DNA of 64,000 bases from Mytilus trossulus (Eukaryota). The translations under genes were made by a program, and so were the position numbers. Of this stretch, positions 3,801 through 54,247 are shown piece after piece (position 1 is the first letter of the stretch; each line of letters opens with the position of its first letter). Location of the stretch: assembly GCF_036588685.1 (NCBI RefSeq), contig NC_086386.1:1302001-1366000 (forward strand). Direction: 5' to 3'. The notes below the pieces were generated by a model. That model saw only the letters and a program-made list of their open reading frames with translations, ran no database searches and was not told the origin of the DNA.

Positions 3801-6800
3801 TTCCTTCTTCTGGTCCCTGCATCATCATCCTCATTGTCTTTGGGTAATTCTCTGGAAAAGAAATTTAATGAGTACCGGTACTGAATATCAGGAAACCAAT
3901 AATTCAACTAAAAACCCAAAAAATAGGGTTGTTAGCCTAACAATGGTTTCTATGTCTTTAGATTTAACTGTAATCTTGGTTGTTTTTAAATCACATATTC
4001 TGTTCTATAACTGAACAAAAAAAAAGTATAATTTTCAAACATTCAAATCTTTATGTGTTTAGAGTGCTTTGCTGTTTGTCATTTATGGTTTTTGTCCATA
4101 TCATTTCAGTTCGTTCTTGATTATAATTGAGGATATCTCATTGGTATCTTTCTTCCCTCTTTTATAGATTTCGAACTCATACACAAGTTTAATATTATTT
4201 AAAAGGGATATTCGTAATTTTAAATTTTATTTTGTTCATTTGACTATACACAACATCCCATGCTGTCCTACACAAATGTTTTCCTAGGTCACTTGTAGGT
4301 CAATCAGAATGTTTGGGAGACTTAATAACATAGCTGGTATGGAGTCAGGTATTTTACATTATAGATGATAACAATAGGTCCAGGAGTTCTACAAAAGATG
4401 AGGTTATAACTTCCACAACAAAGTTTCTAATACAAAACTAGTTCTAACTGGTGACTTGTATGGCCAGCTGATGATTATATGTAGATATGGAATCATTATG
4501 GGCTCAGTACATTTGTGGATCAAGGATTTGAAAAAGGAGCACTATGAACAAGTCTATACAATAACCAATGTATTTAGCTTTTTGAGGCTTTTATCAAATT
4601 ACTAGTGAGTTCTTAAACCAAATGCCATAGTTACAGAGGTCTTACAGAGGTGACCTATAGTTGTTAATGTTTTTAGTCTTTTGTGAATTGTTTTACATTG
4701 TCTTATCGGGACCTTTTATAGCTGAATATGCAGTATGGGCTTTGCTCATTGTTGAAGGCTGTATGGTGACCTATAGTTGTTAATGTTTTTGGTCTTTTGT
4801 GAATTGTTTTACATTGTCTTATCCGGACCTTTTATAGCTGACTATGCGGTATGGGCTTTGCTCATTGTTGAAGGCCGAATGGTGACCTATAGGTGTTAAT
4901 GTTTTTGGTCTTTTGTGGATTGTTGTCTCATTGGCAATCATACCACATCTTCTTTTTTATATTACAATAGAGTAATGGTGCTGGTTTTTTTATGAGCAGA
5001 TTAATGTTGTAGAACGGTGGCAGTTGCTCTCTAACACTTCATTTTAACTCTGGGGATAGTTGTCTCATTAGCAATCATACAATATATCCTTATTTCCATA
5101 CCAATAATATTGTCATAGTTCCTGAATACTTACAATATTGTATTACTACTACTGCTTGAGTGTTTCTTAGGGACAGATGAATGTTGCTGATGTTGTTGAT
5201 TGTGTTGATGATGATGTTGTTGTTTTGCTGCTGGTCCTGGCCCCCGAGGGGTCATCATCATTTTCCTAAAGTCATCATTGGTCAGGGGATGTCTAAATAT
5301 ACATTGTACATGTATTAAATTATTATAATATATAAATTACTGACCCTGTATCTTAACATAATAATTGAAATTGATTTAATACTTGTTTTTTAAACACTAA
5401 ACAAAAAATAAGAATCCATAAAAAAAACAAGAGAAAATCTCTTTAGTCAACACAATAAGATATATTTCCTAGTTATTTGACATAATTTCACCATTGCTGA
5501 ATGACAATCATGACAATTTTAGGAACTATTTTTCGTTAATCATCAGGATGTGTTGTGACTGTTATTTGACTGGCAAGTATAATTTGATAGCAATTAGATA
5601 GTCATAAATAGATTTGAAAAAAATATTATTAGGATTATGTATTGGTATAACAGTGAGAGTTTATTTCTATACAAAAGTTATTATAAATCATAGTAACTAT
5701 GGTAACTTACCCTTCATCCTCATCATCACTATAGTGATGATTTTCTGGAGGAAGTGGATTTGAGAAAACCTCAGAATCTCCTCCTAAAATATATAATCAT
5801 TAAAATGATCTTAGATTTTCTAATGGCAATTTTAATCTAATTTGAAAGTTTAAGTCATATCTAGATCTGTTTGAATCAATTTGAAATATTTTCTGTATTT
5901 AAAATTAGTTATTGTAAATTCATTATTATTTGTGGGACTTCAGCAATACCACAAAATGCCAAAATCGGTAGGCAGGTAGGTAGGTGAAACTTACATAAAT
6001 GAAGAGATAAATGAAAAATGAACAGATTGATGCCCGATTTATATAATTCCAAGGCCGTCAGTCTGCACCAGAAGCGATGAAGCAGCGCATCTATTTAGGG
6101 TGGTCAAATATCCACTTTTTGATATGGGATGAGCCCTGACGTTCCACGACCCAAGCTTGTCTGGCAAAACAGCCGTTAGACATCATGAGAGTAATCTCGG
6201 ACTAATTACCATGCTGCCGTATCAATTTTTTAATTATTATACAGGTCTAAACATATATGACATCTTTGTGACAGTCATTCTCTATCAGATAACACATAAA
6301 TAGAAAATGGAATGTCATTACTCTCTTACTCTAAAAAATAGAAAATCTTTGTACATTCTAACCGGCATCCTACCAGTCGAGGCACAAATCCATACCAAAA
6401 TGATGACATTCTTTAGTAACATATGTCAGCAATCAGACAATAGTGTTGAAAAACAGCTTGGTAAAAGACAACTAGCTGTAAAATCCTCAGGAAGCCACAG
6501 CTGGTATATTGAAGTACAGAGGGTCATGTTCAAATACAACCTCGGCAGAGCCATTGATATGCTGAATAATGCAGATGTGACTAAAACCACTGTCAATCAA
6601 ATAAAAAGACAAATTGCTAACCACTGGGTCAAAGAAATATCAGTTATTGCCAACCTGTATCAAGGGCTAAAATACCTTCAAACAGACAACTTCATGGCAG
6701 GCAAAATCCACAGTATACTGAAGATCAAAAGATACACCAACAAAGACCGTTTTAGAATTCCAATCAAACTAAAACTCCTCACTGGAACCTACTCACTGCA

Positions 6801-8198
6801 GCCCCTGAGATATAAAATCTACAAAGAAGGAAACCAGGAGATATGCAACGCATGCAGCCAAGAAGTGGAAACGGTTGACCATCTATTGATCAAATGTAAA
6901 GCTTGGGACAACATCAGAAGACCTGTAATTAAAGAGATAGAGAACATATTAACAAGCAACAGCAAAATAGAGTGGGAATCTCTTAATGAAGGGACCAAAA
7001 TACAGATATTGATGGACATAACCATGGTACAACGACAACTTCGTCTGAACAGTGAAGAAGTCTCAAAGATAGAACACCAAGCAAAACGTCTCATATACCT
7101 TATACACAGCGCCAGATGTAAACTTCTACTTCAACCATAGCTGATTGGAAGATGATTTGATCAGGGTTTATGGTAGGGTTGGGTCTGGGTGTGTAGGGCA
7201 GCCAATTCCAAAAAAGTCGAGCTCACTGTATAACATGTTAATTTCAAACGCTTCGGAATTCATGGGTGTAATTTGACCATATTTACAATGAACATTATGC
7301 AGATTGCTGCAACAAATACGTAATATGGGTGTGCCGGTGCCAATATAGATGTGAGATAAAATCTTTTACCTTTTAAAGACAAGCTTTTAGAACTATATTA
7401 ATAAACATATGACAATTGCTGTTAAATTACAGTGCGTGCCTAGATCGTAAACGTCGCACAAAGTGCTAATATATAGATGCAACGAAATCTTAAAAATCCT
7501 GTTATATATTTTATGATGTGAAATTGTCTATTTCTATGCCATGTATGCGTGGATTAAGTTTTTAGGCTATATGAACATTTTAAACAATTTTAAGTATATG
7601 AAAAGGAAAGAAAGTGATTTTCTTTTAACTTTTAGATCTTTTTATCATATCACGAAAGGCGAACTATTTTACATTTTACTGCTGCAAATCTATTATTCTT
7701 TTTATCAGTGCGAACTTGAGTGTAGCATCTTATTTTACAACATTGTCTTTTAAGAATGAACTATTTTACTACATTGTCTCTTAAGAATGAACTATTTTAC
7801 TACGTAAACATATATAATCCCATTGTATATATGTCCGGTAACTAGCCTAACAATTTTAAACGCAACTAAGAATACATACAACAAGATATATGCGAAACTA
7901 CAAAAGTGCTCCTGTATATAGCGGTGGAGGATGGAACTATCCGAATTATAGTGTATATATATTCCTACTTGTATGGTGGTGGGTTTTGTTTTACATGCCT
8001 TAATGGTGTGGTTGTCCTACAAAGGATGTGAAGATTTGGAAGAAGAAGAAGAAATTCATCAGACTTTGTCAGAACAGAGAATTTATCATAAATACATGAC
8101 TTTGATAATACAGTCTAAAATTGAAAATAAATGCTTTACAGATAGTATGTGTGCTGATTTCATGTGTGTTTGTGGGGTGCAAACTTACTTTCTGGCAT
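791..8198 (-). CDS. IK: Protein Red / IK (spliceosomal B-complex and spindle-pole protein), exons 1-7; gene continues beyond the left edge
   Basis: Minus-strand exons with GT-AG ends and matching phases: 8198-8189 (MPE), 5783-5711 (RGDSEVFSNPLPPE), 5292-5134 (HPLTNDDFRKMMMTPR), 3851-3792 (ELPKDNEDDDAGTRRRKKK), 2576-2507 (YYAKLKRMEEEKQKELEEKYRDR), 1594-1497 (ARERRDGHNKDYEETEIVSTTADYRAVAP), 905-791 (ENYAERRKQVIQESKYLGGDMEHTHLVKGLDFALLEK). YRDRA.ERR and SK.LGGDMEHTHLVKGLDFALL are hallmark RED N-terminal motifs. Confidence 0.95.
1427..1511 (-). repeat. 31-bp degenerate triplication of the IK exon 6 donor
   Basis: Plus-strand ACTTACG(C/T)CTTAAA-like motif ACTTACGYCTTAAC gives minus-strand donors at 1496 (authentic), 1465 and 1434. 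Confidence 0.8.
2034..2519 (-). repeat. 43-bp tandem array (about 11 copies) spanning the IK exon 5 donor
   Basis: Plus-strand unit CCTTACCCTATCTCTGTACTTTATTTCTTGTAACTAATGGCAA reads TACAGAGATAGG|GTAAGG on the minus strand. Donors occur every 43 bp from 2506 down to 2076. Confidence 0.95.
6345..8052 (+). mobile_element. 5'-truncated non-LTR retrotransposon (LINE): ORF2 C-terminus, 3' UTR and (GAA)n tail, in IK intron 1, antisense to IK
   Basis: ORF 6307-7140 has 'LYILTGILPVEAQIH' (typical region after the RT domain) and a CCHC-type finger CNACSQEVETVDHLLIKC. It is followed by about 900 bp and ends in GAAGAAGAAGAAGAA at about 8039-8053. The 5' boundary is approximate. Confidence 0.8.
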
Positions 8199-8637: not shown

Positions 8638-11600
8638 ATGGCGTTTTCTAAAGCACCATTTAAACGCTTTAACGAAAAGACAGGTGGGTGAAAATATAGA
8701 TTAAAGATTCACTGAGGCTGATCAATGCAAATATAAAAAAAAGTTGTCAATTCGGCACCTATACAAAATCGGGACCTGGTAAAAAAATGGGGTACAAGAT
8801 TATAATTGCAATGATCAAATTGGTTTTTCTCGTAATCTGTAGCTTAAACAACTGCATGCACAGTGGCTCCTTTGGCTTTGTTGTGTTTTTTTATTTACAA
8901 CTGCAGTGACAAATATTACCATCACTATTTTCGCTTTATAGTCACACCTAAACAATAGTTTTTGTAAAGCGTATTTCATTTCCTCATTTATGTAAACAAA
9001 ACAATATTTTTTTTCACTCCAATGGCAGCTGTCGGAGCAAATATCTGCCCTTTCATATCCTTCGGTGCCTTTCCTGGTCTAAGATTATCTTGCTAGAAGG
9101 GTGTCTGTGTTTACATTTGTATATTGATATTCCTATTGATTTTTTTTACCACCTCTTGCGATTTGCTTAAGGTTTACAATTGGCAATGTGTGTATATCTG
9201 AAGAAATAAACCATTATTAAATATTATCTTAATTTTCAAAGTAAACAACTCTAGAAGTCTTTAGTCTTTAGAAGTGTCAACTTGACACTATAATCTCTCT
9301 GTAATTTGAATCACACTGGTAAATTTACGTCACTTTTGTATAAAACTCATTGGTACATTTGTATTTATAATGTGGCACTGCAGAAAAAAATATGTAACTT
9401 AATAAATAATTCAATAATTAATTACCCAAAAAAAAAAAAAAAAAAATTGAATAAGTAATTAACTCTTATAAAACCTTAACTATCTATTTTGTGAACCTTC
9501 CAGTATCTTTAATAAAGACCCCTAACAAATGCTGAATATCTTCTATGTGATGTTTGTAATTATCATTTTCTGTTGTTGCTAACAATACTTCAGATTCAAG
9601 TGTTAGTTTTGCTGTTATGAAGTAGAGTGCTGAGCGGAGTTTGTCTCTAGCCTCCTCATAATTTTCACAATCCAGCAGGTAATGGTCTACTGTTTCTACT
9701 TGTCCACAGCTGCATTTGTCGATGAGTGCTGGGCATATTGTTGATTTGTAAAAGTTTAAATTGCAATATCCTGTTCTTAGACTTGTAGTTATTCTATATA
9801 TTTCAGTTGACGGCTTGTCTTTTGGAAGTGTATTTTTTACATTTTGTTGAAAGGCATAATATCTTCTTCCTTTATCACTGGTGTCCCATCGGTTTTGCCA
9901 TTTTACCATAACACTGTCTTTTGCTCCTTTTTGTATATCTTGTCTTGTAAATACTGGAATGCTTTGTATTTTTTCTGCCTCCTGTGCTGCTTTTTTAGCT
10001 AGTTGGTCTGCTAGTTCATTACCTTGTATGTCAGCGTGTCCAGGGGTCCATTCAATGGAAACCATGATTCCTTCAGATTTAAGTGCCAATATACCAATTT
10101 TAATATCATGAATAGTTTTGCCATAATTATCAGATTTCCAATTTAAAGTTAAAATTCCAATTGCTGATTGGCTGTCTGAGAAAATTTGGATAGATTCAGT
10201 GTTTTTTCTGTTGTTTGGAATTAAAAGAAAATCTATTACTAGCTTGATAGCTACTAATTCCCCTAATAAAATAGATCCTATATTGGAAACTAGCTGGGTT
10301 AACTCCACATGTTCTGTGCTGTTTGATATTAAAATAGCTGCCCCAGCACCACATGGACCTGGATTTCCTTTGCAGGAGCCATCAGTGAAAGCTAATGTTG
10401 TATTATTTTTAAGTTGATGTATTTTTTCCAAAATAATATTTTTTCCCTGAAATGCTTGTTCCTCTGATCTAGACTTTGAACTTCCGAGATTTTTCCAATA
10501 CTCTGGTGGTGATTTTGAGGCTGCTAACCCTCGGAATTCAAATTGAGACTATACAGTCAGAATCAATCTCTGTTGACCTTTTCATGTCTTCAGCCTGTAA
10601 TACCATTCTTCCAATTGGTGAGATTATTTTTTCAGGTTCACTTATATTTTTCCAATCTTCAAAAATTTGTTTAATAGGGATAGTGATTTTATATGATTTT
10701 ATTTTTGCAATTTGTCGGATACCGGCTTCTTCTCTTTTGAGGTCCAGTGGTAGTATTTATAAAAAAATTATAAAAGTTTGCTGGTATAGATGAAAACTTA
10801 TCTCAAATTACAATCTTTAAAATAAACTTTTAATAATTTTGATTAAAAAACTGAAGGTCCCTTTTTTTTAAAAAACTGTTTCATACAGTAACTGATCTTC
10901 TGATTGGCTGAGAGTATTTTGTTTATCAGCGTACATGGTTGTACACTTAAATTTGATATGACTGTGTTTCATCAACATTTTTTCATGTCAGATTTACCCC
11001 TTACAAATAGAATTTAGAATGAGTTGTAAGGAGTGATAAGTGTTTTATCTAAAGCAATTTTGTATGGCACAACGCCATGGCCTATGTTTTGATGCAATGC
11101 TCTTTTTCTTTGTAAAATTTGATGCCATGTGCCCTTTTGTATTATCTAGATCAAGATTGGGATTTTTTGCTGTCAGATCAAAGTGGAACTATCACATCAA
11201 AGCATTGACTTAATTATTAGCATGTCATTACATGGAAGAGATTTTTAATCGGTTCAGCAAGACTCATGAGCTTACAGCCCTTCTAGGCTATATTATATTA
11301 TAATCCAGTTCTAACACCTGAGGGATCTGATATCCGGATTAAATCTCTCATCACTTGTACCTGAGCTTGTACAGGTAGATCAACATACCAGACAAGAGAA
11401 TACTATCTGAAGATAGAGGGTTCATTTATCAAATTATTCAACTAAGTTTCAGCAAATGCTTATGATAATTTAGATTAAATAAATAAATTAATTATCCAGT
11501 TAGAAAGAAAACAGTTTAACAAGTCGAAGACATGCTTTTATTTTAACTTTAATACGAATCAGCATCCCCCTTTTTTTTAAAGGGGCACTAGCTACCAGAT

Positions 11601-23600: not shown

Positions 23601-26600
23601 TCTGACATGAACAACATTTAATATCAGAGAGAGAGTGAACAAAAAGGTTTTTCCTGACATAACTTATGCAATTAATTAATGAACATTTAAATTTGTGATT
23701 CTCCTGTACCCACAAAATCAACAAAAATTGGTATATCATATGAGCGTATGATTGTTGTTAGGAATTTGAAGAAAAAACACTTGTTGTAACAGTGAAGACC
23801 TTGTTGTTAATGTGTTTATCTTGAGCATCAATGTATTGCTTAGAAGTTGTTATCAAGTTTTGTTTTAATTTTCAGGAGAATGTGGAAAAATTTATCTATG
23901 AATTAGATGAACAGAAACAGCTGACCTCTGACCTCCAGATGTTAGTTGTTGATAAAGAAGAGAAAATAACAGACTTGGAGATATCACTAGAGGCCACAAA
24001 AGTGGAATTACAGAACTTAATGGACAGCATAGAAGATAAGGAGGGTGATATCATAAACTTACAACACAGAATTCACAGTCTAGAGGAAATGGAGAGGTCA
24101 CTTCAAAGTCAAATACAACACGAAAACAAGGTCAACCAAGAAACAGCAAGACAACATGCAGATAGAATATTACATTTAGAACATCGTGAGATTTCTGTTA
24201 CCGAGGAAAACATCAAGTTATGTAGAGAACTAGAAGAGATGAATCATCTCAAATCTGCTGTTGAGGAGAAAATGGAGGACGGACACAAGGAATTGACAAA
24301 CCAGTTACAACTGGTTCTGAAAGAAAAGGAAAGCATACAAACTGAACTGGAAATCACACAAAAAAAGCAAGCAAGTTTGAAGGAAGAAGTTTCTAACCTT
24401 GAAGGGAAACTAACAACTGTAGAAGATACACTAGAAATAGAAAAACAAACACGTCTTGATATTGCTGAGCAGATGACAGGAAACATTCAGACAGTTATCC
24501 AGGAGAAACAAGATTTGATCAACAACTTACAATCACTTACCTCACAAATAGAAAAAAGTAAATCTGACAACATTTACCTGATAGAACAGATACAGGAATT
24601 AGAGAAAGTGAAAGTACAACAACAACAGGAAATATTACATCAGAAGGAGGAGTTAGGCAAAGTGAAAGTAGATAAAGAAAACACTGATGATAAACTGAAG
24701 AAGTTGGATGCTAAATTCCACAGTCTAAACAAAGAAAATACACAGTTAATGAATGAGATTGACTTTTTACAGGAGAAAAAATTGAGGGATGAAAATGAAA
24801 TTAAGGATCAAATTGAAACATTGAAAAGTGATTTGTTAAATTTGAAGGAGAAAGATGAGAGTCAAACTGAGGCTATATCTCAACATGTTGAGTCATTGGA
24901 AGATGCTCATTCTGAGATTGAAAAGTTGAGGAATGACACTATGAATCTGAAGGAGAAAGAGACAGTTCAGACTGAGACTATATCTCAACATCTCAAGTCA
25001 TTAGAAGATGCTTATACTAGAGAGAAAGAATTAGATGAAGAGAAAGTAGAGCTAACATCAAAATTAGAACAAGTAACAACACAAAAAGAGGCCATCTCAA
25101 AACAGTTTTCTGAGTTAGTGAGTTCATTAGAAGAAGTGAGTAACAAATCAACAGAGAAGGAGACCAACTGGAGAAGTGAACAGGAGAGATTGATCACAGA
25201 ATTACAGACGGTCACAAACCAAAAGGAGATCTTACAACAAAGGATTACTTCCCTTGAGGAGGAAAAAGGAGCACTTGGGGAATTAGTTAAGCATTTAGAA
25301 ACTAAGTTGGAAGATGTGGAAAGAGAAAGTAGAACAGAAATAGATTCTATTAAAACCCGTTTAGAAAACACAGAACACCAGAATGAGACACTACAATCTG
25401 TGAACCTGACATTACAGGAGACATTAGAGGATCAAGGTGTACGATCTCACAGCTTGGAAAACGATGTAGAAAAGTTAACACAAGAAATACATGTGTATAA
25501 AGATTTCAAAGGGAAGTATGAAGATAAAGTCAAAGAAATATCACATGTGGAACAGGAAATGATGTCACAGATTGATTCACTAAAGGTTAAAATACAGGAC
25601 ACTGAGGCAGGGAAAGATATGCTGAATCAGCAGATTAACGATATTAATAAAATAGTCGATACTTTAAATACGGAGAATGCAAGACTTGAAAAGGAAATAG
25701 ATACTAAAGAAGAGGTCATAGAAAGGTTAACTTTACAATATGAATCTGAAATAAAAACTTTTAAAACTGAGGTCAAAGGTCAACAATCTTGTAATAGAGA
25801 TTTGACTGATAATATACAGCTTTTAGAAAACAGACTTAAAGAATTAGAAAGTGAAACTGTGAAATATAGAACACAAACTGAAGCGATGCAAAACGAAGTA
25901 AAGCATAAAGAAAGTGAATCAATAAATAGAATAGAAGATTTATCTCAACTTCTCCATTCAGTGAAGGAGGACAGGAATCAGCTAACACAGGAAGTTCAAT
26001 CTTTACAAAGGTATAGTTAGATCTATATACAATTGTCCATCTATTAGTCATAAATATGTCTACCTTTAATGGCAGTCTTAAGTGATTTATTCTTTTCATG
26101 TATAAAAAAGACAAATCTTCACAAGAGACCAATTGACACAGAAATTAACTAGAGGTCACCATACAGCCTTCAACAACCAGTAAAGCCCACACCGCATATT
26201 TGTTAAGAAATCAATCTCTGCTTATACTTATAGCTTTACAGTAGGAAGAATGCAGTCTGCCTATCAGGATGTCAATAGCTTGCTTAATGTACAAAATCTT
26301 TTGAAACAAATACGATAAGTTTTAAGATATTGAGGTGTTAATTTTTTTTCCGAAAAGAGAAATTTTTATGAGAATGTAACAAGGAGCCATTTTTTAAAGT
26401 TTTTTAAATGAAGAAAGGCTTTGGGGCCAAATTCTGGAGTATTCACACCCATTATTAGTATTAATATGAATAACTTTATATTATTAAACAAGTTACAGGT
26501 ATTTAAATAGAAATACTACTTTATGTTTAGTCAAATACACACAGTGGAAGATGAAAAAGAAGAAATGGCCAAACACTATGAAGATGAATTAATGGATCTG

Positions 26601-38152: not shown

Positions 38153-39766
38153 CATACATTACTTTATATATTGTGATCAAATCAGAATACATTGCTTAGC
38201 ACATGGACATTGGAATAACACATGTTACAAGATTGAATAAAAGACACTTAACATTACAATAGAACAATGGAGTCATGAATACTAGTTGGATTTTCATTGG
38301 TTTAGAATAATGAACAGTAGAGACCTGAATACTAGTTGGATTTTCATTGGTAGGGAGAAACAAGGAACTGAGATACTCTATACAATACAAATCTTAGCAT
38401 CTTCCATAAGACCACATAACAAAACAGATGATTGAATAGAGATTTTTCTCGAACTATTAAAATTGTTTCCAGGGAAAATAAATGAAACCACAATACTTGA
38501 TACCAGGGATTACAGATAATGGCAGAAAGTAATAAATAGCCGTCATAATTATTCTCATTGTTTAAGTTATATCTATGTATAAAGTCTGTGATGGAAGTGA
38601 ATAGTATAATAAATATAGAATGTAAATAGTTTGATATTTATTTATCTTTTTGAAGTAAAACTGTTATGAAATGGTTCCTAATCTGAGGGATTATTGTGCT
38701 TGGGCATTCTTCTGAAGCCACAATGTCAAATTATTTTTCACCACAAAAAACTGTAAAATATCAAACGGGAAATATGAAGTTTAATTGCCATTGAGATAGC
38801 TATACATTACCGTTATAAATACTCTACAAATTAAAGGAAATATGTGGTATGATTGCCATTGAGATAGCTATACATTACCGTTATAAATACTCTACAAATT
38901 AAAGGAAATATGAGGTATGATTGCCATTGAGCCAGCTTTACATCCGAGTCCAAAGAAACGATAAGGTTACAACTAAAGGGTACCATACAACCTTGTCATT
39001 CAACAATGAGCAAAATCCATAATGTATAGTTGTCAATAAGATTTCCTAGCATGACATTATTTCAAATGATTCAACAGAAAACAAAAATATGACACCTAAA
39101 AAACAAAAAGGAAGCAAGCTTGTGTGTTATTGTAAGAGGTCAGCCTGCATTTGACATTGGAAAGAGGACAAGAAACATTAAAGATATCAGTTTGAAACGA
39201 TAGGACATGTATGATCCTATGGAAAACAAAAGTATTGACATAATCCTGTACTTGAGAAATCTTTTCAGAAAAATTTGAAAGATTTGGTTTGTTATTGTCT
39301 CGACTGCGATGAGTCGCAAAATGTATATATAGGGATCACTATCCTGTAGTAAACTATTTGTATAAAGCTTTGTATTTCAGAGGGTAGAATATATGGAGGT
39401 TTCACACCTTTTTTGCAGATGTTTTATGTTGCAAAGTTTCTGTCTGTCATATGTCCATTGTCCTTGACCTCATTTTCAGTTCCTTGCAAGGTCGAAACTT
39501 TCTCCAAGACAGAGTTCACCTGAGCTGATCTCATTTTATGTATCATTGATCAATGTTTAAGTCCTTTTCTGAGATACTATAAGCAGTACTATAGGTCAAC
39601 TCTATATTTGGTGTATGAAATTATTGTTAAGTAAACAAGTCAGTCTGGCAGACCTGTTTCATTTGACCTTTACCTCATTTTTATTCACAGTTTATAATAT
39701 TATGTTTTCCTGGTGAAATCTGTTTCTCAGATAATTCAACTATATTTGTTTCACAGAATGAACACA

Positions 39767-40905
39767 TGGTGACTATGTCTGGCAGAGTTTACCTCATGGT
39801 GACTTTGTCTGGCAGAGTTTACCACAGGGTGACTATGTCTGGCAGAGTTTACCACAGGGTGACTATGTCTGGCAGAGTTTACCTCAGGCTGACTATGTCT
39901 GGCAGAGTTTACCTCAGGGTGACTATGTCTGGCAGAGTTTACCACAGGGTGACTATGTCTGGCAGAGTTTACCTCAGGGTGACTATGTCTGGCAGAGTTT
40001 ACCACAGGGTGACTATGTCTGGCAGAGTTTACCTCAGGGTGACTATGTCTGGCAGAGTTTACCACATGGTGACTATGTCTGGCAGAGTTTACCTTATGGT
40101 GACTTTGTCTGGCAGAGTTTACCACAGGGTGACTATGTCTGACAGAGTTAACCTCAGGGTGACTATGTCTGGTAGAGTTTACCACAGTGTGACTATGTCT
40201 GGCAGAGTTTACAACAGGGTGACTATGTCTGGCAGAGTTTACCTCAGGGTGACTATGTCTGGCAGAGTTTACCACATGGTGACTATGTCTGGCAGAGTTT
40301 ACCTTATGGTGACTTTGTCTGGCAGAGTTTACCACAGGGTGACTATGTCTGACAGAGTTAACCTCAGGGTGACTATGTCTGGTAGAGTTTACCACAGTGT
40401 GACTATGTCTGGCAGAGTTTACAACAGGGTGACTATGTCTGGTAGAGTTTACCACCGGGTGACTATGTCTGGCAGAGTTTACCTCAGGGTGACTATGTCT
40501 GGCAGAGTTTACAACAGGGTGACTATGTCTGGTAGAGTTTACCATAGGGTGACTATGTCTGGCAGAGTTTACCACAGGGTGACTATGTCTGGCAGAGTTT
40601 ACCTCAGGGTGACTATGTCTGACAGAGTTTACCACATGGTGACTATGTCTGGCAGAGTTTACCACAGGGTGACTATGTCAGGCAGAGTTTACCTTGAGGG
40701 TGACTATGTCTGGCAGAGTTTACCTCAGGGTGGCTATGTCTGGCAGAGTTTACCTCAGGGTGACTATGTCTGGCAGAGTTTACCTCAGGGTGGTTATGTC
40801 TGGCAGAGTTTACCACAGGGTGACTATGTCTGGCAGAGTTTACCACAGGGTGACTATGTCTGGCAGAGTTTACCACAGGGTGGCTATGTCTGGCAGAGTT
40901 TACAT
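39767..40905. repeat. 30-bp minisatellite (about 38 copies)
   Basis: Unit GTGACTATGTCTGGCAGAGTTTACC(A/T)CAGG. It accounts for the long periodic ORFs on both strands. Confidence 0.97.
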
Positions 40906-41028
40906 GACCTTGTTTTGCTGCTGGTTGTCAGTCTCCTTTTAATCATTAATACTGAAACATGAATTACACAAAATGTAGACGTTTATAGGATATCATATAA
41001 ACACTGTGAATCTTCCTACTAACCAAAG

Positions 41029-44725: not shown

Positions 44726-45181
44726 CTAGTGACCCACTTTCTGTAGCCTTCGTCACAATACAGGGTTTGAAATTGGCAATGGCCCCTAAAATTTGGTGTG
44801 AGCTTCTTCAATTTCTGCTTTTCTTGTTTAGGACTAGATGTAGGATACAAAATTTAAACTGTGGGCTACAATTGCCAAAGTCTTAAGTTCAATCCCTGCT
44901 ATATAATTAGATAAGTTCAATAATATCCTGGATAATTTTATATTTGGTTTGCAGATAATGTTGGTTGTAGGTTATAAGCAATTTGTATAACTGTTTGCAG
45001 AGTTTGAAAAATGCACAGATGTAATAACTCAAACCAGTACATGTTGATGCAATTTTTTTTTAATGTGTTGGAGGCTGAACTCAGAAAAGATGAACATCCA
45101 AAGTCACTGTCCCTATGCTGTTGGTTTTGTCAGCAACAGTTTTCATTCTATGTCGGTGGCTCAACTCTGACATTAATTAAA

Positions 45182-45897
45182 CCAACTGTTTCTATACTTC
45201 GGGTTTTGTCAGTAAGGATATCTTGACTGTGGGATGAACTAACATTTTCTGCTCCAACTGGTTCTATACTTTGGGTTTTGTCAGTAAGGATATCTTGACT
45301 GTGGGATGAACTAACATTTTCTGCTCCAACTGTTTCTATACTTTGGGTTTTGTCAGTAAGGATATCTTGACCGTGGGATGAACTAACATTTTCTGCTCCA
45401 ACTGGTTCTATACTTTGGGTTTTGTCAGTAAGGATATCTTGACTGTGGGATGAACTAACATTTTCTGCTCCAACTGTCTCTATACTTTGGGTTTTGTCAG
45501 TAAGGATATCTTGACCGTGGGATGAACTAACATTTTCTGCTCCAACTGTTTCTATACTTTGGGTTTTGTCAGTAAGGATATCTTGACCGTGGGATGAACT
45601 AACATTTTCTGCTCCAACTGTTTCTATACTTTGGGTTTTGTCAGTAAGGATATCTTGACCGTGGGATGAACTAACATTTTCTGCTCCAACTGTTTCTATA
45701 CTTTGGGTTTTGTCAGTAAGGATATCTTGACTGTGGGATGAACTAACATTTTCTGCTCCAACTGTTTCTATACTTTGGGTTTTGTCAGTAAGGATATCTT
45801 GACTGTGGGATGAACTAACATTTTCTGCTCCAACTGGTTCTATACTTTGGGTTTTGTCAGGAGAATATCTTGCCTGTGGGATGCTCCAACTAGTTCT
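45182..45897. repeat. 72-bp minisatellite (about 9.5 copies)
   Basis: Unit CCAACTGTTTCTATACTTTGGGTTTTGTCAGTAAGGATATCTTGACTGTGGGATGAACTAACATTTTCTGCT starting at 45182, 45254 and onwards. Confidence 0.95.
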
Positions 45898-48527
45898 ATT
45901 ATTGTATTATGTGAGAATGTTTGCTCTGTGTTGAAGGCATCACTGTGACTTATAAAGAACACAATAAAAGTGTTGTTTCTTTGGTCTTTATAGATTGGTA
46001 GCCTATACTTTTTTATTTTTTACTGTAACACTAACTGTGTGAAGTTTACGGTGGTGTCTGTTGTCAAATTTTGGCTTTTTAATTGTCACTAATCTTATGC
46101 CTATGTCTTTTGCCAGGTGCTTGTAGCTATTTTGATTCATGTGTTTATATACTCTTTTTTCTTCAGTCATTTCATTAAGAATGATCAGCTATGAGTTAGA
46201 ACTAAGGGTCATGAATAAAGTGAAATGTTGAAAGCTTTGTGAATCAGCGGGCAGAGATCACTCTAGCACACAATGAACGCACAATGCCTTTCAGAGATCA
46301 AACTAGCACATGATAACCTCACAATGCCCTTCAGAAATAATATTTAAATAATAAGACAACTAAACTTTTTTTCAATTTTAATGTCTCATTTTAAGACATT
46401 ATCAATGATCACTACAAAAATGAAACAAAACTCAATAACTCATGATAAATAGATCATGTTATACGGAGATAATACAAAGAAAGTTCACTCAAGTGGTTCA
46501 TAACATAATAACTATAACCCAGAATATGACATCGGTATAATAATAGTCAGACAGAATATGACATCGGTATAATAATAGTCAGACAGAATATGACATCGGT
46601 ATAATAATAGTCAGATAGAGTGCTTTATATTCATTGTTCTTATGTAACGTTCATTTTAATTGGATAATGCCACAAATTTTAGATCATCAATTCTTTCCTT
46701 GATTAATGACCTAAAATTGTGTGGGCAAGAACAGATGATAGATGTATATAACTAATAAAATTAACAATTAAAAGTTATATAATATAAACACAAGTCTTTT
46801 CGTTATATAATAACACAAAAGTAGTTTAAATATATAATATAACACAGAAATCTTTGAGTGAAGTTATGTGACCAATGAAATACTTTAATAAGAATTCTGG
46901 TGTACCTTCAAATATACCTAGTATTAGTACACCACAATACTTTATGATACAGGCAACATTATACAATAACAAAAACAACCAAAGCATAGTACTCAGGGAT
47001 ACATACTGTATTGAAGTGAAACTCATCAAAATATATATCTTCATTTGAGTAGCCATATAAATGTTTACATAAATCCTTCAAGTGTGGTTTTGATTATAAA
47101 TTATTCAAGTGAAAAATATAACTTTAAAATTACCAAGAATGAAAATAATATCTGCATAAAAAAACTTGTATTATAACTACTCTGTAAAGTATCCCTGGGA
47201 ACAAAACAATAATAATAATACAATAATTATACTGAAATCTGCACAAGACAAATACAAGTATTTGCATTGTGGATGAAGTCCATTTATTATTTGTGTGCCC
47301 ACAAAGTAATAAACAATATCATCAATTTCTCTCCAGTGTCTATGTATTTAAAAAGGGCTTTATTTAAATATTCTAATATTTTTAGGCCATTGGTGTCTAT
47401 TCTATATTTTTGGGGTCTGTTAATCTATTTTTGTATATCTCAGACCCGTAATACTGTATTTTGTTAACTTTACCTAGTCCCTCATGATAACTTAACAAGT
47501 TTAACAAGTTTTACATATTTGTACCACTATAAAAAGTCAATTATAAATAAGGTTTTAATAATGAATGATCTATCATTACAGAACTAATGGATTAACAGTT
47601 AGGTCAGTTACTTGACGACGAAACAAACTAATGATATTTACATTGTATTGTTATTTTATTAAATACATATTGTGGAGCTATTATTCCGACTTATAAAGAA
47701 TGACAACAAATTGTCATGAATATATTATAAAACAATGGTTACCATGGTTACCACAGACTAGTGATAACAGCCCACTGTAGAGAAGTTGATGATACAATAG
47801 GTATAAAATAAAACAAAATAGTCTTATACAGAAACTTGTACACATACAATTTCCTATCATTATAAATTACAGCACTTCTGGTATAATACTTCATACAGAT
47901 AGAGACATATGTCTCCCTGCTTCATATTCTACTTCTCATTAGACACCAAGGTCAATGGTCTATCTAAAGGAGAGGTTAACTCCATATAAAGAATCTATAA
48001 AACTGTGATGAACTTTGTATTCTAATGTATAAGGGTCAAATGTTCCTTTTCATTTACTTTAAGAATCTAAACTGAATACATGATCAAGTGTCATGGATTG
48101 TCTCATTGACATATACCCAATGTCTCCCCACACTACCCTAAAATGACTTACAACATACAACTGTTTTTGGTATAAAAAGAAGGTATTCAAAATATAAAGT
48201 AGAAATCAAATATGTCCTCCACCATCTTATTTCAACTTCCAAATATATTGTGAGCTCAATTGTTTGACGCTTTTCCCTGGATTTAACTGTTTGTTGACAA
48301 TTCTAAGCAATTTCTAATATAAACCAACTTCTTCTTCAATTTTTAAACATTTCCAATTATAAAATAGCAAATATTCAGAATTCAGAAGGATTTTTTCCAA
48401 AAATACAGATCTAAAATAAGAATATAAAAAAATCTTTACATCAACTAACTCAGTTAGAAGTGTTTTTAAAGTTTTATACAATAAAACATTGATATAATTA
48501 TGATGTTTGTAGACCTGACCATGTTAT

Positions 48528-51500
48528 TCAATCGTCCTCAATAGACCCATGAAAAATCCAACTTTCTTCTACAATAACTTTAACTCGTTTCTCATACTCC
48601 CTTTTATTGTCTTTGTATAGCTGGGCTGCCACATTATTTGCAGGGCTATTTGGATTTGGTTCATCAAGCAAAGACTGAAATAATACCCAAATTGGGACTA
48701 AACTTTATTTTAAAATTTACAGTATTTTATGACTATATGATAACGTTCATTGTTAGAATTTATAACCATTTAACTACTATTGAATAGATGAACTGTTAAC
48801 ACAGAGATTTGTCTGTGTGGCCTTAATACAATTTATCATTGCAGACAACAAGTTACCTCCCTTACCAACATGATCAAGATCTCTGAAATGTTTAAGTCAT
48901 ACTACATAAATCATTATCACAGAAAAAATCCTAAAAACTTTCTCATTTCAGATATCTGATCATAAAAATGCTTTGATTTGATTGTTCTCAATCATAAGTT
49001 TTTTTTGTAAAACTTGATAAAACACAAGTGAAAATAAAATAAATCCCTTGAATTTTACAACTGATTAAAAACATGATGCTGTAACTAGCAACAGATGAAA
49101 AATTACCCATTTGTCAGGCATATTTTTACTCTTTTTTTTTGGTGCTTACTTAACAATACCATAACTGACATTGGACTTAACAAGACTGGAACACATCTAA
49201 ATGGTACAATTCAATCAAACATTAACAAACATATGTTGCCCTTTCAGAAATGACTGTTAGGGGCTGTCTCATAACATATTTATATTGAAATTCTAATACT
49301 TTACGAGTTCAATTGACATGACTATTTTCTGAATTTCAGAATTATAAACAGCTCAATATGCTGATCAACATTCTAAAATGATGTTAGTTATAAAATCTAC
49401 ATGTAGTTTAAAATTAACGACACCAAATAAGGAAAAGTTCTGAGACAACCCCTTACAAGGAAAAGATATGTGTACATTATCAATGGAGAGATTTTTAACT
49501 GCATGTCTAATTAATGAAAGCTGTTGCTATGACAATTCTTTAGTTGTGTCCTCCTCATCGTCCGAATCATCTTGCCAGCTTTGTTGCACTATTGATGCTA
49601 CTTTTTTCTCATATTCTCGCCGATTTTCTCTATATAACTGAGCAGCTTCATTATTTGCTGGGCTATTTGGATTTGGATCGTGAAGTAAAGACTAAAATCA
49701 GAAAGAGACAATAATGTGCTAGGATGATGACAGATATGGATGATGAAGATGACCTAAAGTAATGTCGTCAACAACGGGATGTTAAACCAAAATAATTTAT
49801 TTTCTGTTTATTTCTAATTGTTTAATTTCCAAGCACCTGTACAAAGTAACATGATGTAAGGGAAGCAACCAACTGAAGACAATAATCTCTCAATTCCTTA
49901 TAAATGACTCATATGATAATTTCACTGTACATATACACATTCATATTTCAATATTTGTTAAATTTGCTTGGCTATAACAAGTAAATGCCTTGACCTTGAG
50001 TAAATTTTTAAATATATTTTAGTTTTTTTTCAATTTTTATTAAAATACCAGCAAAGTAAAATGTGTAATGTCTTGTAAAATCTTACAAATGATACAATGG
50101 TTGATGATTAATACCCATGTTCTGATATAGAGGTAAATATGGCTAGTGTTATATGTAACCTTACCTGTATAGAGGTAAATATGGCTAGTGTTATATGTAA
50201 CCTTACCTGTATAGAGGTAAATATGGCTAGTGTTATATGTAACCTTACCTGTATAGAGGTAAATATGGCTAGTGTTATATGTAACCTTACCTGTATAGAG
50301 GTAAATATGGCTAGTGTTATATGTAACCTTACCTGTATAGAGGTAAATATGGCTAGTGTTATATGTAACCTTACCTGTATAGAGGTTAAAATGGCTGATG
50401 CATCATATGTAGGACTCTACCTGTATAGAGGTAAATATGGCTAGTGTTATATGTAACCTTACCTGTATAGAGGTAAATATGGCTAGTGTTATATGTAACC
50501 TTACCTGTATAGAGGTAAATATGGCTAGTGTTATATGTAACCTTACCTGTATAGAGGTTAAAATGGCTGATGCATCATATGTAGGACTCCATCTATTTTG
50601 TAAAATATCTAAACATATACTACCATCAGCATAAACTGAAACAATATAATGTTAGTAAATAAATACATTATCAACAAGCAATTCATACAAATTCATAAAA
50701 TAACAAGAATGTGTCCAAAGTACACGGATGCCGCATTCACACTATCATTTTCCATTTTCAATGGACCCTGAAATTTGGCAAAGAATTTAATTTGGCATTA
50801 AAATAAGAAAGATCATATACCATAGGGAACATGTAATTGGACTTCAACTTCATTAAAAACTACATTGACCATGTTGACCAAAAACTTTAACCTGAAACTC
50901 GCACTTTCATATTCTATGTTCAGTGGACTGTGAAATTGGGGTTAAAAGTCTAATTTGGCTTCAAAATTAGAAATATCATATCATAAGGAGCATGTGTATA
51001 AAGTTTCAAGTTGATTGGACTTCAGCTTCATCAAAAACTACCTTGACCAAAAACTTTAACCTGAAGCGGGACAGATCAACAGACGTACAGACCAGAAACG
51101 TAATGCCCCTCTACTATCGTAGGTGGGGCATAAAAATAATTGAATACATTCCTGTACCAAAATGTGTTGTGGATTGATGGTTATTCTGGAACTTTGTATA
51201 AAACACAAAGAAAGATGCGTTTGTTAACTTGTCATTATATACAGCTCATAAATTAATCAGTCAAATTTATAAGTAAGTGTATGTTCACTTGTGTTAATAT
51301 GTCTTTTGATTGAGTCCAGCCATTTCAACTGATATTTTATAGTGTATGTGTCTTTCTATGTTGTGATGTTACACTATTGTTTCTGGAAAGGGTGAGGGTT
51401 GTACCTACATGTAATAAAACAATGTACCCTATCAAAACGTTTAAAAGCACCGCTGTATTTGTTTGCACCTGTCCAAAGTTAGGAATCTGATGTTCAGTAG

Positions 51501-54247
51501 TTGTTGTTTGTTGATGTGGTTCATAAATGTTTCTCATTTCTCTTTTTATTTTGTAGATTTGATTCTTGGTTTTCTCGTTTAAATGGTTTTACACTAGTCA
51601 TTAATGGAGCCCTTTATAATTTGCTGTTTGGTGTGAGCCAAGGATCCGTGTTGAAGACCATACTTTGACCTATAATTGTTTACTTTTACAAATTGTGACT
51701 TGGATGGAGAGTTGTCTCTTTGGCACTCATAACATCTTCTTATACATGTATCTATGATGACCTTCTGCTGTTGTTTTTTATTTGGTCGGGTTGTTGTCTC
51801 TTTGACACATTCCCCATTTCCATTCTCAATTTTATCTATGAGTTTGAATGAGCACCAGGACCTAATAATATGTCAAGCTCTACATCATTCTTAGGATGTT
51901 TGTACTAAATACACACTTACCATTAGGGTGAAACATTTTAGATACAAATCGTACTGTAGGAAATTTGTACTAAATACACACTTACCATTAGGGTGAAACA
52001 TTTAAGATACAAATCGTACTGTAGAAATCTATACTAAATACACACTTACCATTAGGGTGAAACATTTAAGATACAAATCGTACTGTAGGAAATCTGTACT
52101 AAATACACACTTACCATTAGGGTGAAACATTTTAGATACAAATCGTACTGTAGGGGGTTTATTTGGATATTCTTCAGTGAATTCTACTGTTAATTTAAAT
52201 GTACCATCTTCAAAAGGTGTGTCATGTGGCCTAAAACAGAATATATAACAAATAAAGTTCATGAAACAAGCAATAAAATAAGACTGTAAACAAACTAAGC
52301 TCAAATTTCAAAATGTATGTTAAGAAATCATTTTATAATTATAGGGATGCAGTAGTGTCAAGTCTCTTCTTTTAACATGAGACTCCACATATGCATGCTT
52401 AATTGGTGGCATTTTTCTTTGATTCATTGTTCTTCTCTGATGTTTTCTGGAAACCATAACAGGGTCAGGATCGATATCATGTATCATAACAGAGTTCTCA
52501 CATGAGCCCATGAGTCATAATGAAAATCTGTATTTGAAAAATGTCAAAATAATTCTGTTGCCCTGTTTATCATTTCTTTGATCAGAGTCATTTAACCATA
52601 TTGTAATCAGGATACTAAGGAAAATAAATGTAGAATGGTATAGAAAGAAAACAGCTCTAGAGAGGGAGTTTTTTGTTCGAGATAAGTGTTCTTCAAAGTT
52701 TTAAGATTATGCCCCCATATTGTTGAGTCTGCAGTTTAAATGTTGTAAACTTGTATAACTGTTTCTTTGGTTTATTTAAAGGCACTGGCTACGGTTACAC
52801 GGAAATGTAACAATAATAAAAATATTATTGTTACATTGGAGACTAAATGCCAGAATGCATGGTTGGGCAAGGACCTGTTTAGTTACGAATGTAACAATAA
52901 TTATTGAGGCTACGGTTACATTGCGTTATTGTTACATGAAAAACAGCAATGTACGATGGGACTAGTAATATGTACTAAATTATAAAAGTTGTAGACATTT
53001 ATTTTATATTTACAATACATAAATTTATTACATACAATTTATTTACTGTAACTTTTTATTTACAATGACAATTTCTACAAATCCAGTAACTGGTTTTGAA
53101 AGTCCGACATTTTTTATGAACACAATTACATCCTCCACGGAAACGTGTACATACAAAAGTTCTTAGTATTTAAGTTACAGTTAGCAAACTTTGCTTTTGA
53201 TGTATCAATTTGCGTCAAGTTGTATAGCTGTATGAAATTTATGTCTTGATATTGTTTCAGTTTCGTTTAAAACGCATCCCAAGTTTTCTTTTTTTTCTCT
53301 CACCCTAAACACTATTTGTTGAATAATAATATTTACTATCTATCATTATTACAAGTATTATTTGGTACATATGAAAGAATTAAGCAACACGACTATAGAA
53401 GATTTAAGTTTAATAAACAAGCGTACTGTTTTTCATGTAACAATAAAGTTATGTAACCGTAGCCTCAGTAATTATTGTTACATTCGTAATTTTTCGGTTC
53501 CTCGCCAACTTTGCATTCCGGCAATTAGTCTCCCATGTAACAATAATATTTTTATTATTGTTACATTTCCATGTAACCGTAGCCAGTGCCTTATTTAAAT
53601 TGTATAATATTTAACTTTTAATTGACTTTGTGGTTCAGTTCAGACTACACCAGGATCTAATTAATTATTCATGCGACCAGGATCCCTGAAATCACGCTAC
53701 CAGAAGATTTCTAGGGTCACCCTGTTAAAGTGTATCATAGGCACTGGCAGTTGCATTGGCATAAGTAGATCTGTGGCTTATATGGCAATATGGCTAAAAG
53801 ATACACAGTTTTTTTGTAGAAGATGATGCATGTTTGTAATTGGCTTTTTATTTATTCTTTCCATGAAAGGGCACCTGTAACTTATTCAAATGTTCCTAAA
53901 TGTTTAATGTTGTTGTGCTGGAATTAGTAAACTCTGATTATTCAATGACAATGAATAGGGATTGACCTGATTATTATGACAAATTATGTTTCTCCACAAA
54001 ACTTACCCAAATATTACTGCATTCCACAACATTATGTTATTGTCTGTTGGGGCACCACTTACACCAGCAGGTGGATCTTCTTGTAATCTGAAAATGAACA
54101 GTAAGAACTTTGTAAAAAAAATATATAAACAAAAACGGAAGCCATGTTTGATAACTGTTTTGAAGTACATAATTCGTTTTAAATGAGAATAGGGCTACAC
54201 TACCTTTTAAAATCTCTCATCAATCGTCTCCTAGCAGGTGTTGACAT
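48528..54247 (-). CDS. UBE2A: Ubiquitin-conjugating enzyme E2 RAD6 (UBE2A/UBE2B orthologue), isoform using the distal last exon, 158 aa
   Basis: Exons 54247-54204 ([15 protein letters not shown]), 54087-54007 ([27 protein letters not shown]), 52230-52115 ([38 protein letters not shown]), 50635-50547 ([30 protein letters not shown], with the catalytic Cys) and 48674-48528 ([48 protein letters not shown]). Confidence 0.96.
49527..49691 (-). CDS. UBE2A: Alternative (proximal) terminal exon of RAD6/UBE2A with acidic tail, giving a 164-aa isoform
   Basis: Acceptor TCTTTCTGATTTTAG, then phase-0 [54 protein letters not shown]. It is an intact paralogue of the 48674-48528 exon. Confidence 0.88.
50125..50590 (-). 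repeat. 42-bp tandem array (10 donors) spanning the UBE2A exon 4 donor
   Basis: Minus-strand unit GTAAGGTTACATATAACACTAGCCATATTTACCTCTATACAG. Donors at 50546 (authentic), 50504, 50462, 50420, 50374, 50332, 50290, 50248, 50206 and 50164. Confidence 0.96.
50702..51136 (-). mobile_element. Short HINE-like dispersed element; related copies at about 20930-21205 (+) and 55765-56040 (+)
   Basis: Shared ends TTTTTATGCCC(C)ACCTA...TAGTAGAGGG and GGCATCCGTGTACT.TGGACAC.TTCTTGTT, and shared core GGTCAAGGTAGTTTTTGATGAAG.TGAAGTC. Confidence 0.7.
51899..52154 (-). repeat. 65-bp tandem array (4 copies) spanning the UBE2A exon 3 donor
   Basis: Minus-strand unit CCTACAGTACGATTTGTATCTAAAATGTTTCACCCTAATG|GTAAGTGTGTATTTAGTACAGATTT. 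Donors at 52114 (authentic), 52049, 51985 and 51920. Confidence 0.95.
52781..53590. mobile_element. Mutator/MULE-like non-autonomous element
   Basis: 9-bp TSD TTATTTAAA (52772-52780 and 53591-53599). ~160-bp imperfect TIRs GGCACTGGCTACGGTTACA... / ...TGTAACCGTAGCCAGTGCC with internal TGTAACAATAAT palindromic subrepeats. Confidence 0.85.

What the first reader, a model, noticed from the sequence alone, without database searches (positions are those of the whole stretch)
48528..49691. RAD6/UBE2A has two intact duplicated last exons, one with a yeast-like acidic tail
Seen: two phase-0 terminal exons 1 kb apart encode paralogous C-termini ([54 protein letters not shown] and [48 protein letters not shown]). 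Many differences are synonymous and both keep the Ser120-Pro site. Established: budding-yeast Rad6 has an acidic tail that promotes histone ubiquitylation, vertebrate UBE2A/B lack it, and Ser120 is a CDK phosphosite. Inference: one gene makes two functionally different E2s by alternative last-exon choice, instead of the gene duplication seen in vertebrates.
Basis: partly seen in the sequence, partly recalled or inferred. Interest (0 to 1): 0.72.

Follow-up and report, generated by a model that had tools for sequence, protein, structure and literature searches.

The report
Ancient twin last exons in RAD6
The RAD6/UBE2A gene, which tags histones and DNA-repair proteins with ubiquitin, carries two interchangeable last exons here and in the same order in snails, oysters, worms and insects, so one gene makes two enzyme versions that likely differ in partners, probably since early animal evolution.

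Summary
One RAD6/UBE2A gene has two intact phase-0 last exons (A 49691-49527, B 48674-48528). Of 80 metagenome loci, 30 hold both exons, always A then B; fused A+B gene models occur in oyster, gastropods and insects. Both exons are under strong purifying selection (dN/dS 0.011 and 0.021 in one group of close relatives). Exon 4 spliced to A is seen in RNA reads; exon 4 spliced to B was not seen in this lineage's reads, but two database proteins share an identical core with either end, and bees and ants have both as annotated isoforms. A's 3' UTR runs through B, so the switch is 3' splice-site choice. The acidic tail marks A only in Spiralia; insect A is tail-less. The deeper constant difference is residues 114-115 in the catalytic gate loop. 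Human UBE2A and UBE2B are both B-type, so they are not the vertebrate equivalent. A single ancient origin is favoured but rests on six columns. Function is untested. New member of a known class; not found in print.

The parts
54204..54247 (-). Coding exon 1 (44 nt, ATG at 54247)
   Evidence: Motif positions (ATG at 54247, GT donor follows 54204; the script's own slice was one base off); sequence
54007..54087 (-). Coding exon 2 (81 nt)
   Evidence: AG/GT boundaries
52115..52230 (-). Coding exon 3 (116 nt, ends in the HPN motif)
   Evidence: AG/GT boundaries
50547..50635 (-). Coding exon 4 (89 nt, catalytic C88, ends at Q110, phase-0 donor shared by both last exons)
   Evidence: loose ends of 22 and 25 reads at 49693 read as the end of this exon (compared by eye, 5 of 30 letters differ, all synonymous)
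49527..49691 (-). Last exon A (upstream; H114-D115, E125, Q146; residues 111-164)
   Evidence: spliced to exon 4 in RNA run X24 and in 5 transcript-like contigs
49530..49574 (-). Acidic tail of isoform A (15 residues after W149, 8 D/E)
   Evidence: conserved as acidic in 23 of 23 distinct non-insect pairs
48675..49526 (-). A-B interval: 3' UTR for isoform A, intron for isoform B
   Evidence: RNA depth without a gap from A through the interval into B, none upstream of the A acceptor
48528..48674 (-). Last exon B (downstream; D114-E115, V125, E146, hydrophobic residues after W149; residues 111-158)
   Evidence: purifying selection in relatives; spliced B-type protein P0184 and ant-type contig L068
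46900..48527 (-). Shared 3' UTR (lower end not determined; 46900 is only the edge of the stretch laid)
   Evidence: RNA depth

Best explanation
One RAD6/UBE2A gene carries two tandem-duplicated last exons, both kept under purifying selection, and exon 4 is spliced to either one, giving two E2 enzymes with the same first 110 residues that likely differ in catalytic gating and E3 or substrate contacts, from a duplication probably older than the mollusc-insect split. Shown: anatomy, conserved order, selection, the A junction, both spliced forms in other animals. Mechanism of the switch (largely shown): exon 4's donor chooses between a near and a far acceptor; when A is chosen the transcript runs on through B as 3' UTR, so no separate poly(A) site is needed; A is the common form in the spiralian samples seen. 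Inferred: the swap replaces loop 8 with gate residue S120, helix 3, helix 4 and the tail; fixed differences sit at 114, 115, 125, 146 and after W149, where yeast Rad6 contacts Bre1 and Rad18. Spiralian A, with its acidic tail, would favour basic substrates such as histones and ribosomes; B would be the human-like form. Lineages later kept one exon, or split them between paralogues.
For: (anatomy, single locus); 22 and 25 reads join exon 4 to A in RNA run X24; depth continuous through the interval and B; 30 of 80 loci hold both exons, all A-then-B; 19 show exon 4, GT intron, A, B; 5 show exon 4 joined to A with B downstream behind an AG; dN/dS 0.011 (A), 0.021 (B) over 105 non-independent pairs of 15 related loci; window B closer to other B than other A in 25 of 25 loci, window A closer to other A in 23 of 25 (2 ties). 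P0184 (B) and P0306 (A) share an identical, distinctive residues 1-110. Hymenoptera proteins named isoform X1 are B-type, those named X2/X3/X4 are upstream-type; fused A+B models in Magallana, Nucella, Elysia, Batillaria, Gryllus, Cotesia, Timema and others; all-column tree separates all B-type from upstream exons plus fungal/protist rows (98/97); AU rejects arthropod-only (p 0.012), ecdysozoan-only (0.007), spiralian-only (0.040) clades. Function leads: PMC9630792, PMC10018343, PMC9215706.
Against: No exon 4-to-B loose end is listed in X24 (one row hidden); none of the 23 exon 4-to-B loci among the 80 is of spiralian type. The A-junction reads differ from the window at 5 of 30 letters, so they come from a relative, not this genome. 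The tree has only 43 columns; spiralian A+B with flatworms was not rejected (p 0.064); with residues 114, 115, 150-153 dropped, arthropod upstream exons nest among B-types and none of four tests rejects (p 0.07-0.22). Residue 124 follows lineage, not exon class (N in both spiralian exons, S in both arthropod exons in most rows). Insect upstream exon has neither the tail nor E125. No biochemical test exists.
Confidence: 0.75

Rival explanations
1. The exons are real and both used, but the duplication arose twice (Spiralia and Pancrustacea), with the arthropod upstream exon derived from a B-type exon that reverted at residues 114-115.
For: With six diagnostic columns dropped, arthropod upstream exons nest among B-types and no single-origin or separate-origin test rejects. 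Residues 124, 140 and 146 of arthropod upstream exons resemble B. Convergent tandem exon duplications are common and C-terminal ones enriched (PMC9741552 passages).
Against: Same intron, same phase, same order and the same xD versus DE signature in both groups; all-column AU tests reject arthropod-only and ecdysozoan-only clades.
Confidence: 0.2
2. In spiralians B is a rarely used, near-redundant exon; the two isoforms are biochemically equivalent and the pair is kept for dosage or 3' UTR regulation (B shortens the UTR by about 1 kb).
For: All 5 spiralian-type transcript contigs and the listed X24 junctions use A.
Against: Class-specific residues are fixed without overlap at six positions in 23 pairs (14 of the 23 are one close group); redundancy would not keep them distinct.
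Confidence: 0.15
3. B is a dead duplicate lying in the 3' UTR, or the tandem is an assembly artefact.
For: B junction not seen.
Against: dN/dS 0.021; AG acceptor kept in all 30 two-exon loci; spliced B protein on the same core as A; independent contigs tile the region.
Confidence: 0.02

Closest known systems
Tandem duplicated exon substitutions with homologous C-termini (Martinez-Gomez et al. 2022, PMC9741552)
   Same: Two homologous, alternatively spliced 3' coding exons swapping a C-terminal region; ancient and conservatively diverged. 77 of 236 human events are C-terminal swaps (passage).
   Different: No UBE2 gene is named in that paper's main text (0 hits) or its one held supplement. Here the swapped region includes the catalytic gate loop and two helices of an enzyme core, and vertebrates lack the event as far as seen.
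Human UBE2A and UBE2B (solved chains 6cyo, 1jas; species recalled)
   Same: Same family; B-type D114-E115, S120-P121, no acidic tail.
   Different: Two genes, both B-type; they do not reproduce the A/B contrast.
Budding-yeast Rad6
   Same: Acidic tail after W149 (23 residues, important for activity: PMC9630792 passage; histone polyubiquitylation and ribosome association: PMC9215706 passages). Fungal rows and chain 2aak share the xD115...E125 pattern of spiralian A.
   Different: Single form; the tail here is shorter (15 residues, 8 acidic). The yeast chain itself was not displayed in an alignment.
Nematode UBC-1 (e.g. C. briggsae P0219, chain 1q34)
   Same: An animal Rad6 with a long, partly acidic extension, so acidic tails in animals are not new.
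   Different: It is B-type; the extension follows hydrophobic residues after W149, as in arthropod B.
Splice-form subfunctionalization after gene duplication (Lambert et al. 2015, PMC4417111, abstract only)
   Same: The copepod Eurytemora has an upstream-type and a B-type protein on different cores (P0436, P0515); the leech Helobdella has two A-type and one B-type paralogue.
   Different: Not the state in this window; for those species only protein records were seen, not the genes.

Membership tests
RAD6/UBE2A E2 family | UBC domain with HPN motif and catalytic C88 | tested here: met
   translation; relatives carry PF00179
RAD6/UBE2A E2 family | Closest solved relatives are UBE2A/UBE2B/Rad6; gate residue S120 | tested here: met
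   (exon A query); S120-P121 in both exons
RAD6/UBE2A E2 family | Ubiquitylates H2B with Bre1 and PCNA with Rad18 | not testable with these tools
   Biochemistry needed
Tandem duplicated alternative terminal exons | Two homologous exons in tandem, same phase, each with an acceptor and its own stop | tested here: met
   30 of 80 loci
Tandem duplicated alternative terminal exons | Upstream exon spliced to the shared donor | tested here: met
   22 and 25 reads in X24, from a relative; 5 contigs
Tandem duplicated alternative terminal exons | Downstream exon spliced to the shared donor in this lineage | tested here: inconclusive
   Not listed; shown only in other animals (P0184/P0306; L068; annotated bee and ant isoforms)
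Tandem duplicated alternative terminal exons | Both exons under purifying selection | tested here: met
Tandem duplicated alternative terminal exons | Tissue- or stage-specific use | not tested
   Only one informative raw RNA run (X24), tissue not given
Alternative last exons with separate poly(A) sites | Upstream exon ends at its own poly(A) site before the downstream exon | tested here: not met
   Reads run through the interval into B with no listed end pile-up; no AATAAA in the interval of the 5 A-spliced contigs, though those were found by their B match; an AATAAA lies at 48709, so minor use is not excluded

The most novel reading that the evidence does not exclude
The duplication predates the cnidarian-bilaterian split: the upstream exon is the pre-animal form (xD115, E125, acidic tail, as in fungi and plants) and B an animal innovation. 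Vertebrates, corals, nematodes and mites kept only B while flies and mosquitoes kept only the upstream exon, so fly Ubc6 and human UBE2A would be non-orthologous across the catalytic gate and C-terminal third, and molluscs, annelids and many insects still switch between two Rad6 chemistries that were separated over half a billion years ago.
Probability: 0.35. Interest if true: 0.78.

Novelty: new member of a known kind. Interest (0 to 1): 0.64.

Why it matters
RAD6/UBE2A is central to H2B ubiquitylation, DNA damage tolerance and N-degron degradation (established knowledge) and is treated as a single, almost invariant protein across animals. A splice switch of its gate loop, two helices and tail, conserved across molluscs, annelids and insects, gives a natural pair of enzymes identical in 110 residues with which to test what the acidic tail and residues 114-115/125 do. 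It also bears on fly-versus-human comparisons, and explains recurrent wrong gene models that fuse both exons in public annotations.

Tried and rejected
No RNA holder was on record in the run index; X21 laid 0 reads, X5 0 contigs, and holes in X1 and X9 are filter effects. X9 contigs ending at 48675 looked like the B junction but are explained by a variant bubble at 48645: rejected. The stretches laid did not include exon 4, so joints could not be called; junctions rest on loose ends. 13 of 14 listed X24 changes in exon B are synonymous, but only 40 of 87 rows were shown and a loose end implies at least one more replacement at residue 134 (read by eye), so this was not used as a rate. Synonymous sites between distant spiralian loci are saturated (pS about 0.87). 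AlphaFold models of P0184 and P0306 were low confidence (mean pLDDT 63.7 and 71.5, both tails under 50): uninformative. The Saccoglossus record in an upstream-type cluster is only an N-terminal fragment: no deuterostome evidence. The Toxocara double model repeats part of exon 4 and has two B-types: not this event. No named deuterostome or cnidarian xD-type protein appeared in the 120 rows shown of each of three searches (265, 800 and 1250 hits): weak evidence. Acceptor pyrimidine content did not explain A's dominance (0.62 A versus 0.72 B in 23 loci; reversed in the window). PMC1218801 was not held; PMC3926112 passages gave nothing on the tail. Earlier-findings look-ups were empty.

Full report
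Observation. The minus strand holds a five-exon RAD6/UBE2A gene: coding exons of 44, 81, 116 and 89 nt end at Q110 in phase 0, followed by two candidate last exons, A (49691-49527) and B (48674-48528), each behind an AG and each with its own stop. Over codons 111-150, 28 of 40 residues match and 12 of those 28 codons differ silently. A search of the own genome with exon B found only these two matches. Contigs of run X20 tile 48454-49790 at about 99% identity, which excludes an assembly artefact.

Splicing. In the one informative raw RNA run (X24, about 19% read), 22 reads at 90% likeness and 25 at 85% leave exon A at 49693 with letters that encode the end of exon 4 (compared by eye, 5 of 30 letters differ, all synonymous, so these reads are from a relative). 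Depth is absent upstream of the A acceptor and continuous from A through the interval, B and the UTR to the edge laid at 46900. No loose end for an exon 4-to-B junction is listed (one row hidden). So A is the main form in that sample and its 3' UTR contains B. The same design is seen in 5 transcript-like contigs with exon 4 joined to A and B downstream behind an AG; these were found by their B match, so shorter A transcripts could not appear. Use of B as coding exon is shown elsewhere: P0184 (B end) and P0306 (A end, long acidic tail) share an identical and distinctive residues 1-110; L068 has an uninterrupted core joined to an ant-type B; Hymenoptera records named isoform X1 end in B and records named X2/X3/X4 end in the upstream type.

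Conservation. The scan kept the best 80 of 300 confirmed metagenome loci. 30 of 80 hold both exons, all A before B; 19 show exon 4, a GT intron, A and B; 23 have exon 4 joined directly to a B-type exon, none with the spiralian N124; 26 show B without exon 4 in the locus; 1 shows exon 4 and an upstream-type exon only. Taxa of these loci are inferred from likeness. Named gene models that fuse A then B exist for Magallana, Nucella, Elysia crispata and Batillaria and for Gryllus, Cotesia, Timema, Trachymyrmex, Trichomalopsis, Diploptera, Temnothorax and Frieseomelitta. A-type ends are named in Lottia, Pomacea, Octopus, Argonauta, Sinanodonta, Dimorphilus, Helobdella and the rotifer Brachionus. In 15 related loci (105 non-independent pairs) dN/dS is 0.011 for A and 0.021 for B.

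What differs. In 23 distinct non-insect pairs (14 from one close group; frameshifted L071 and the two ant-type loci left out) residues 114 (H/D), 115 (D/E), 125 (E/not E), 146 (Q/E), 151 and 152 do not overlap between classes; the A tail has net acidic charge 5-12, B 0-3. In insects and copepods the upstream exon keeps xD115 but ends at residue 151-152 without a tail, while B extends after W149 with hydrophobic residues, as nematode UBC-1 does. Human UBE2A and UBE2B chains, coral and hagfish proteins are B-type; fungal rows and chain 2aak (plant, recalled) are xD115...E125 like spiralian A. Named dipteran rows seen (Zaprionus, Anopheles, Aedes, Polypedilum, Clunio, Chironomus) are all upstream-type; that flies lack B was not tested.

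Age. A 48-row, 43-column tree puts all 24 B-type rows on one side (98/97) against upstream exons plus outgroups, and groups protostome B exons with nematodes and a tardigrade (97/97) (bootstrap not fully settled). AU tests on all columns reject an arthropod-only clade (p 0.012), an ecdysozoan clade (0.007), a spiralian A+B clade (0.040; 0.064 with flatworms) and an all-protostome clade (0.006), and do not reject one clade of upstream exons (0.105) (groups tested after the first tree was seen, six tests). With residues 114, 115 and 150-153 dropped, spiralian A stays apart but arthropod upstream exons nest among B-types, and none of four tests rejects (0.07-0.22). So the duplication is securely older than the mollusc-annelid split (the same pair in named molluscs and an ORF close to Dimorphilus); one origin before the protostome split is favoured by position, phase, order and signature but rests on few columns; a pre-bilaterian origin is possible only. 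Dates are from general knowledge.

Mechanism. Shown: a shared donor with two acceptors, A transcripts carrying B as UTR. Inferred: function. The swapped region covers loop 8 (114-120) with gate residue S120, whose phosphorylation regulates Rad6 and UBE2A, helix 3, which organizes the catalytic pocket, and residues 141-149, needed for Rad18 binding (PMC9630792, passages). Rad6 W149 and residue 150 contact Bre1 K31 (PMC10018343, passages). The yeast acidic tail supports histone polyubiquitylation and ribosome association (PMC9215706, passages). UBE2A is listed among CDK9 targets (PMC3690251, passages); that S120 is the CDK site is recalled. I commit to: A is the general spiralian form with a yeast-like electrostatic tail, B a minor, probably regulated, human-like form with a different gate loop and E3-facing end.

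Comparison and novelty. This is a tandem duplicated terminal-exon substitution, a known class (PMC9741552, passages; no UBE2 hit in text or the one held supplement). Seven searches for this event (listings only) and one for molluscan isoforms (15 of 879 listed, none with UBE2A) found no description; most subscription papers and other supplements are not covered. Automated annotation already lists both forms in Hymenoptera.

Verdict. Real, conserved, alternatively spliced; new member of a known kind; interest 0.64.

Noticed in passing
window 50126-50589: A 42-bp tandem array (about 10.5 copies) repeats the end of exon 4 with its GT donor; one unit translates without a stop in frame (14 aa), so use of a later donor would insert 14-residue units. 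The relative's junction reads use the true exon end.
   Followed up: partly
window 51901-52154: A 65-bp array (3.9 copies) likewise repeats the end of exon 3 with its donor.
   Followed up: no
window 48440-49790, run X24: Two read populations: one about 94% alike through the UTR, and a larger one that matches only the coding exons and B's acceptor, with unrelated flanks (loose ends at 48527, 48690, 49517). A second species or a paralogue in that run; its B resembles P0180.
   Followed up: partly
P0436 and P0515 (Eurytemora); P0124, P0139, P0126 (Helobdella): Upstream-type and B-type ends on different cores within one species: possible partition of the splice forms between paralogues.
   Followed up: partly
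L058, L061, L080, L081: Long contigs with exon 4 joined directly to a B-type end (L058 and L080 have the whole coding sequence without introns); ends resemble named mite proteins, suggesting intronless, B-only genes.
   Followed up: partly
P0001, P0130, P0131, P0151, P0444, P0174-P0176, P0178, P0284, P0286, P0287, P0289-P0292: Public gene models fuse both last exons into one protein; probably annotation errors caused by this arrangement.
   Followed up: no
window 48704-48709: An AATAAA lies 35 nt upstream of B's acceptor; could be a minor poly(A) site for A competing with B.
   Followed up: no
window 23825-26020 (+): 731-codon open frame of coiled-coil-like composition, probably a large exon of a neighbouring gene.
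   Followed up: no
window 9484-10548 (-) and 6304-7140 (+): Open frames that look by eye like the RNase H and C-terminal parts of non-LTR retrotransposons; not searched against a family library.
   Followed up: no
window 45148-45906 (-) and 39667-40962: Tandem arrays with long open frames (72-bp unit, 9.8 copies; a shorter-unit array open in several frames); probably satellites.
   Followed up: no
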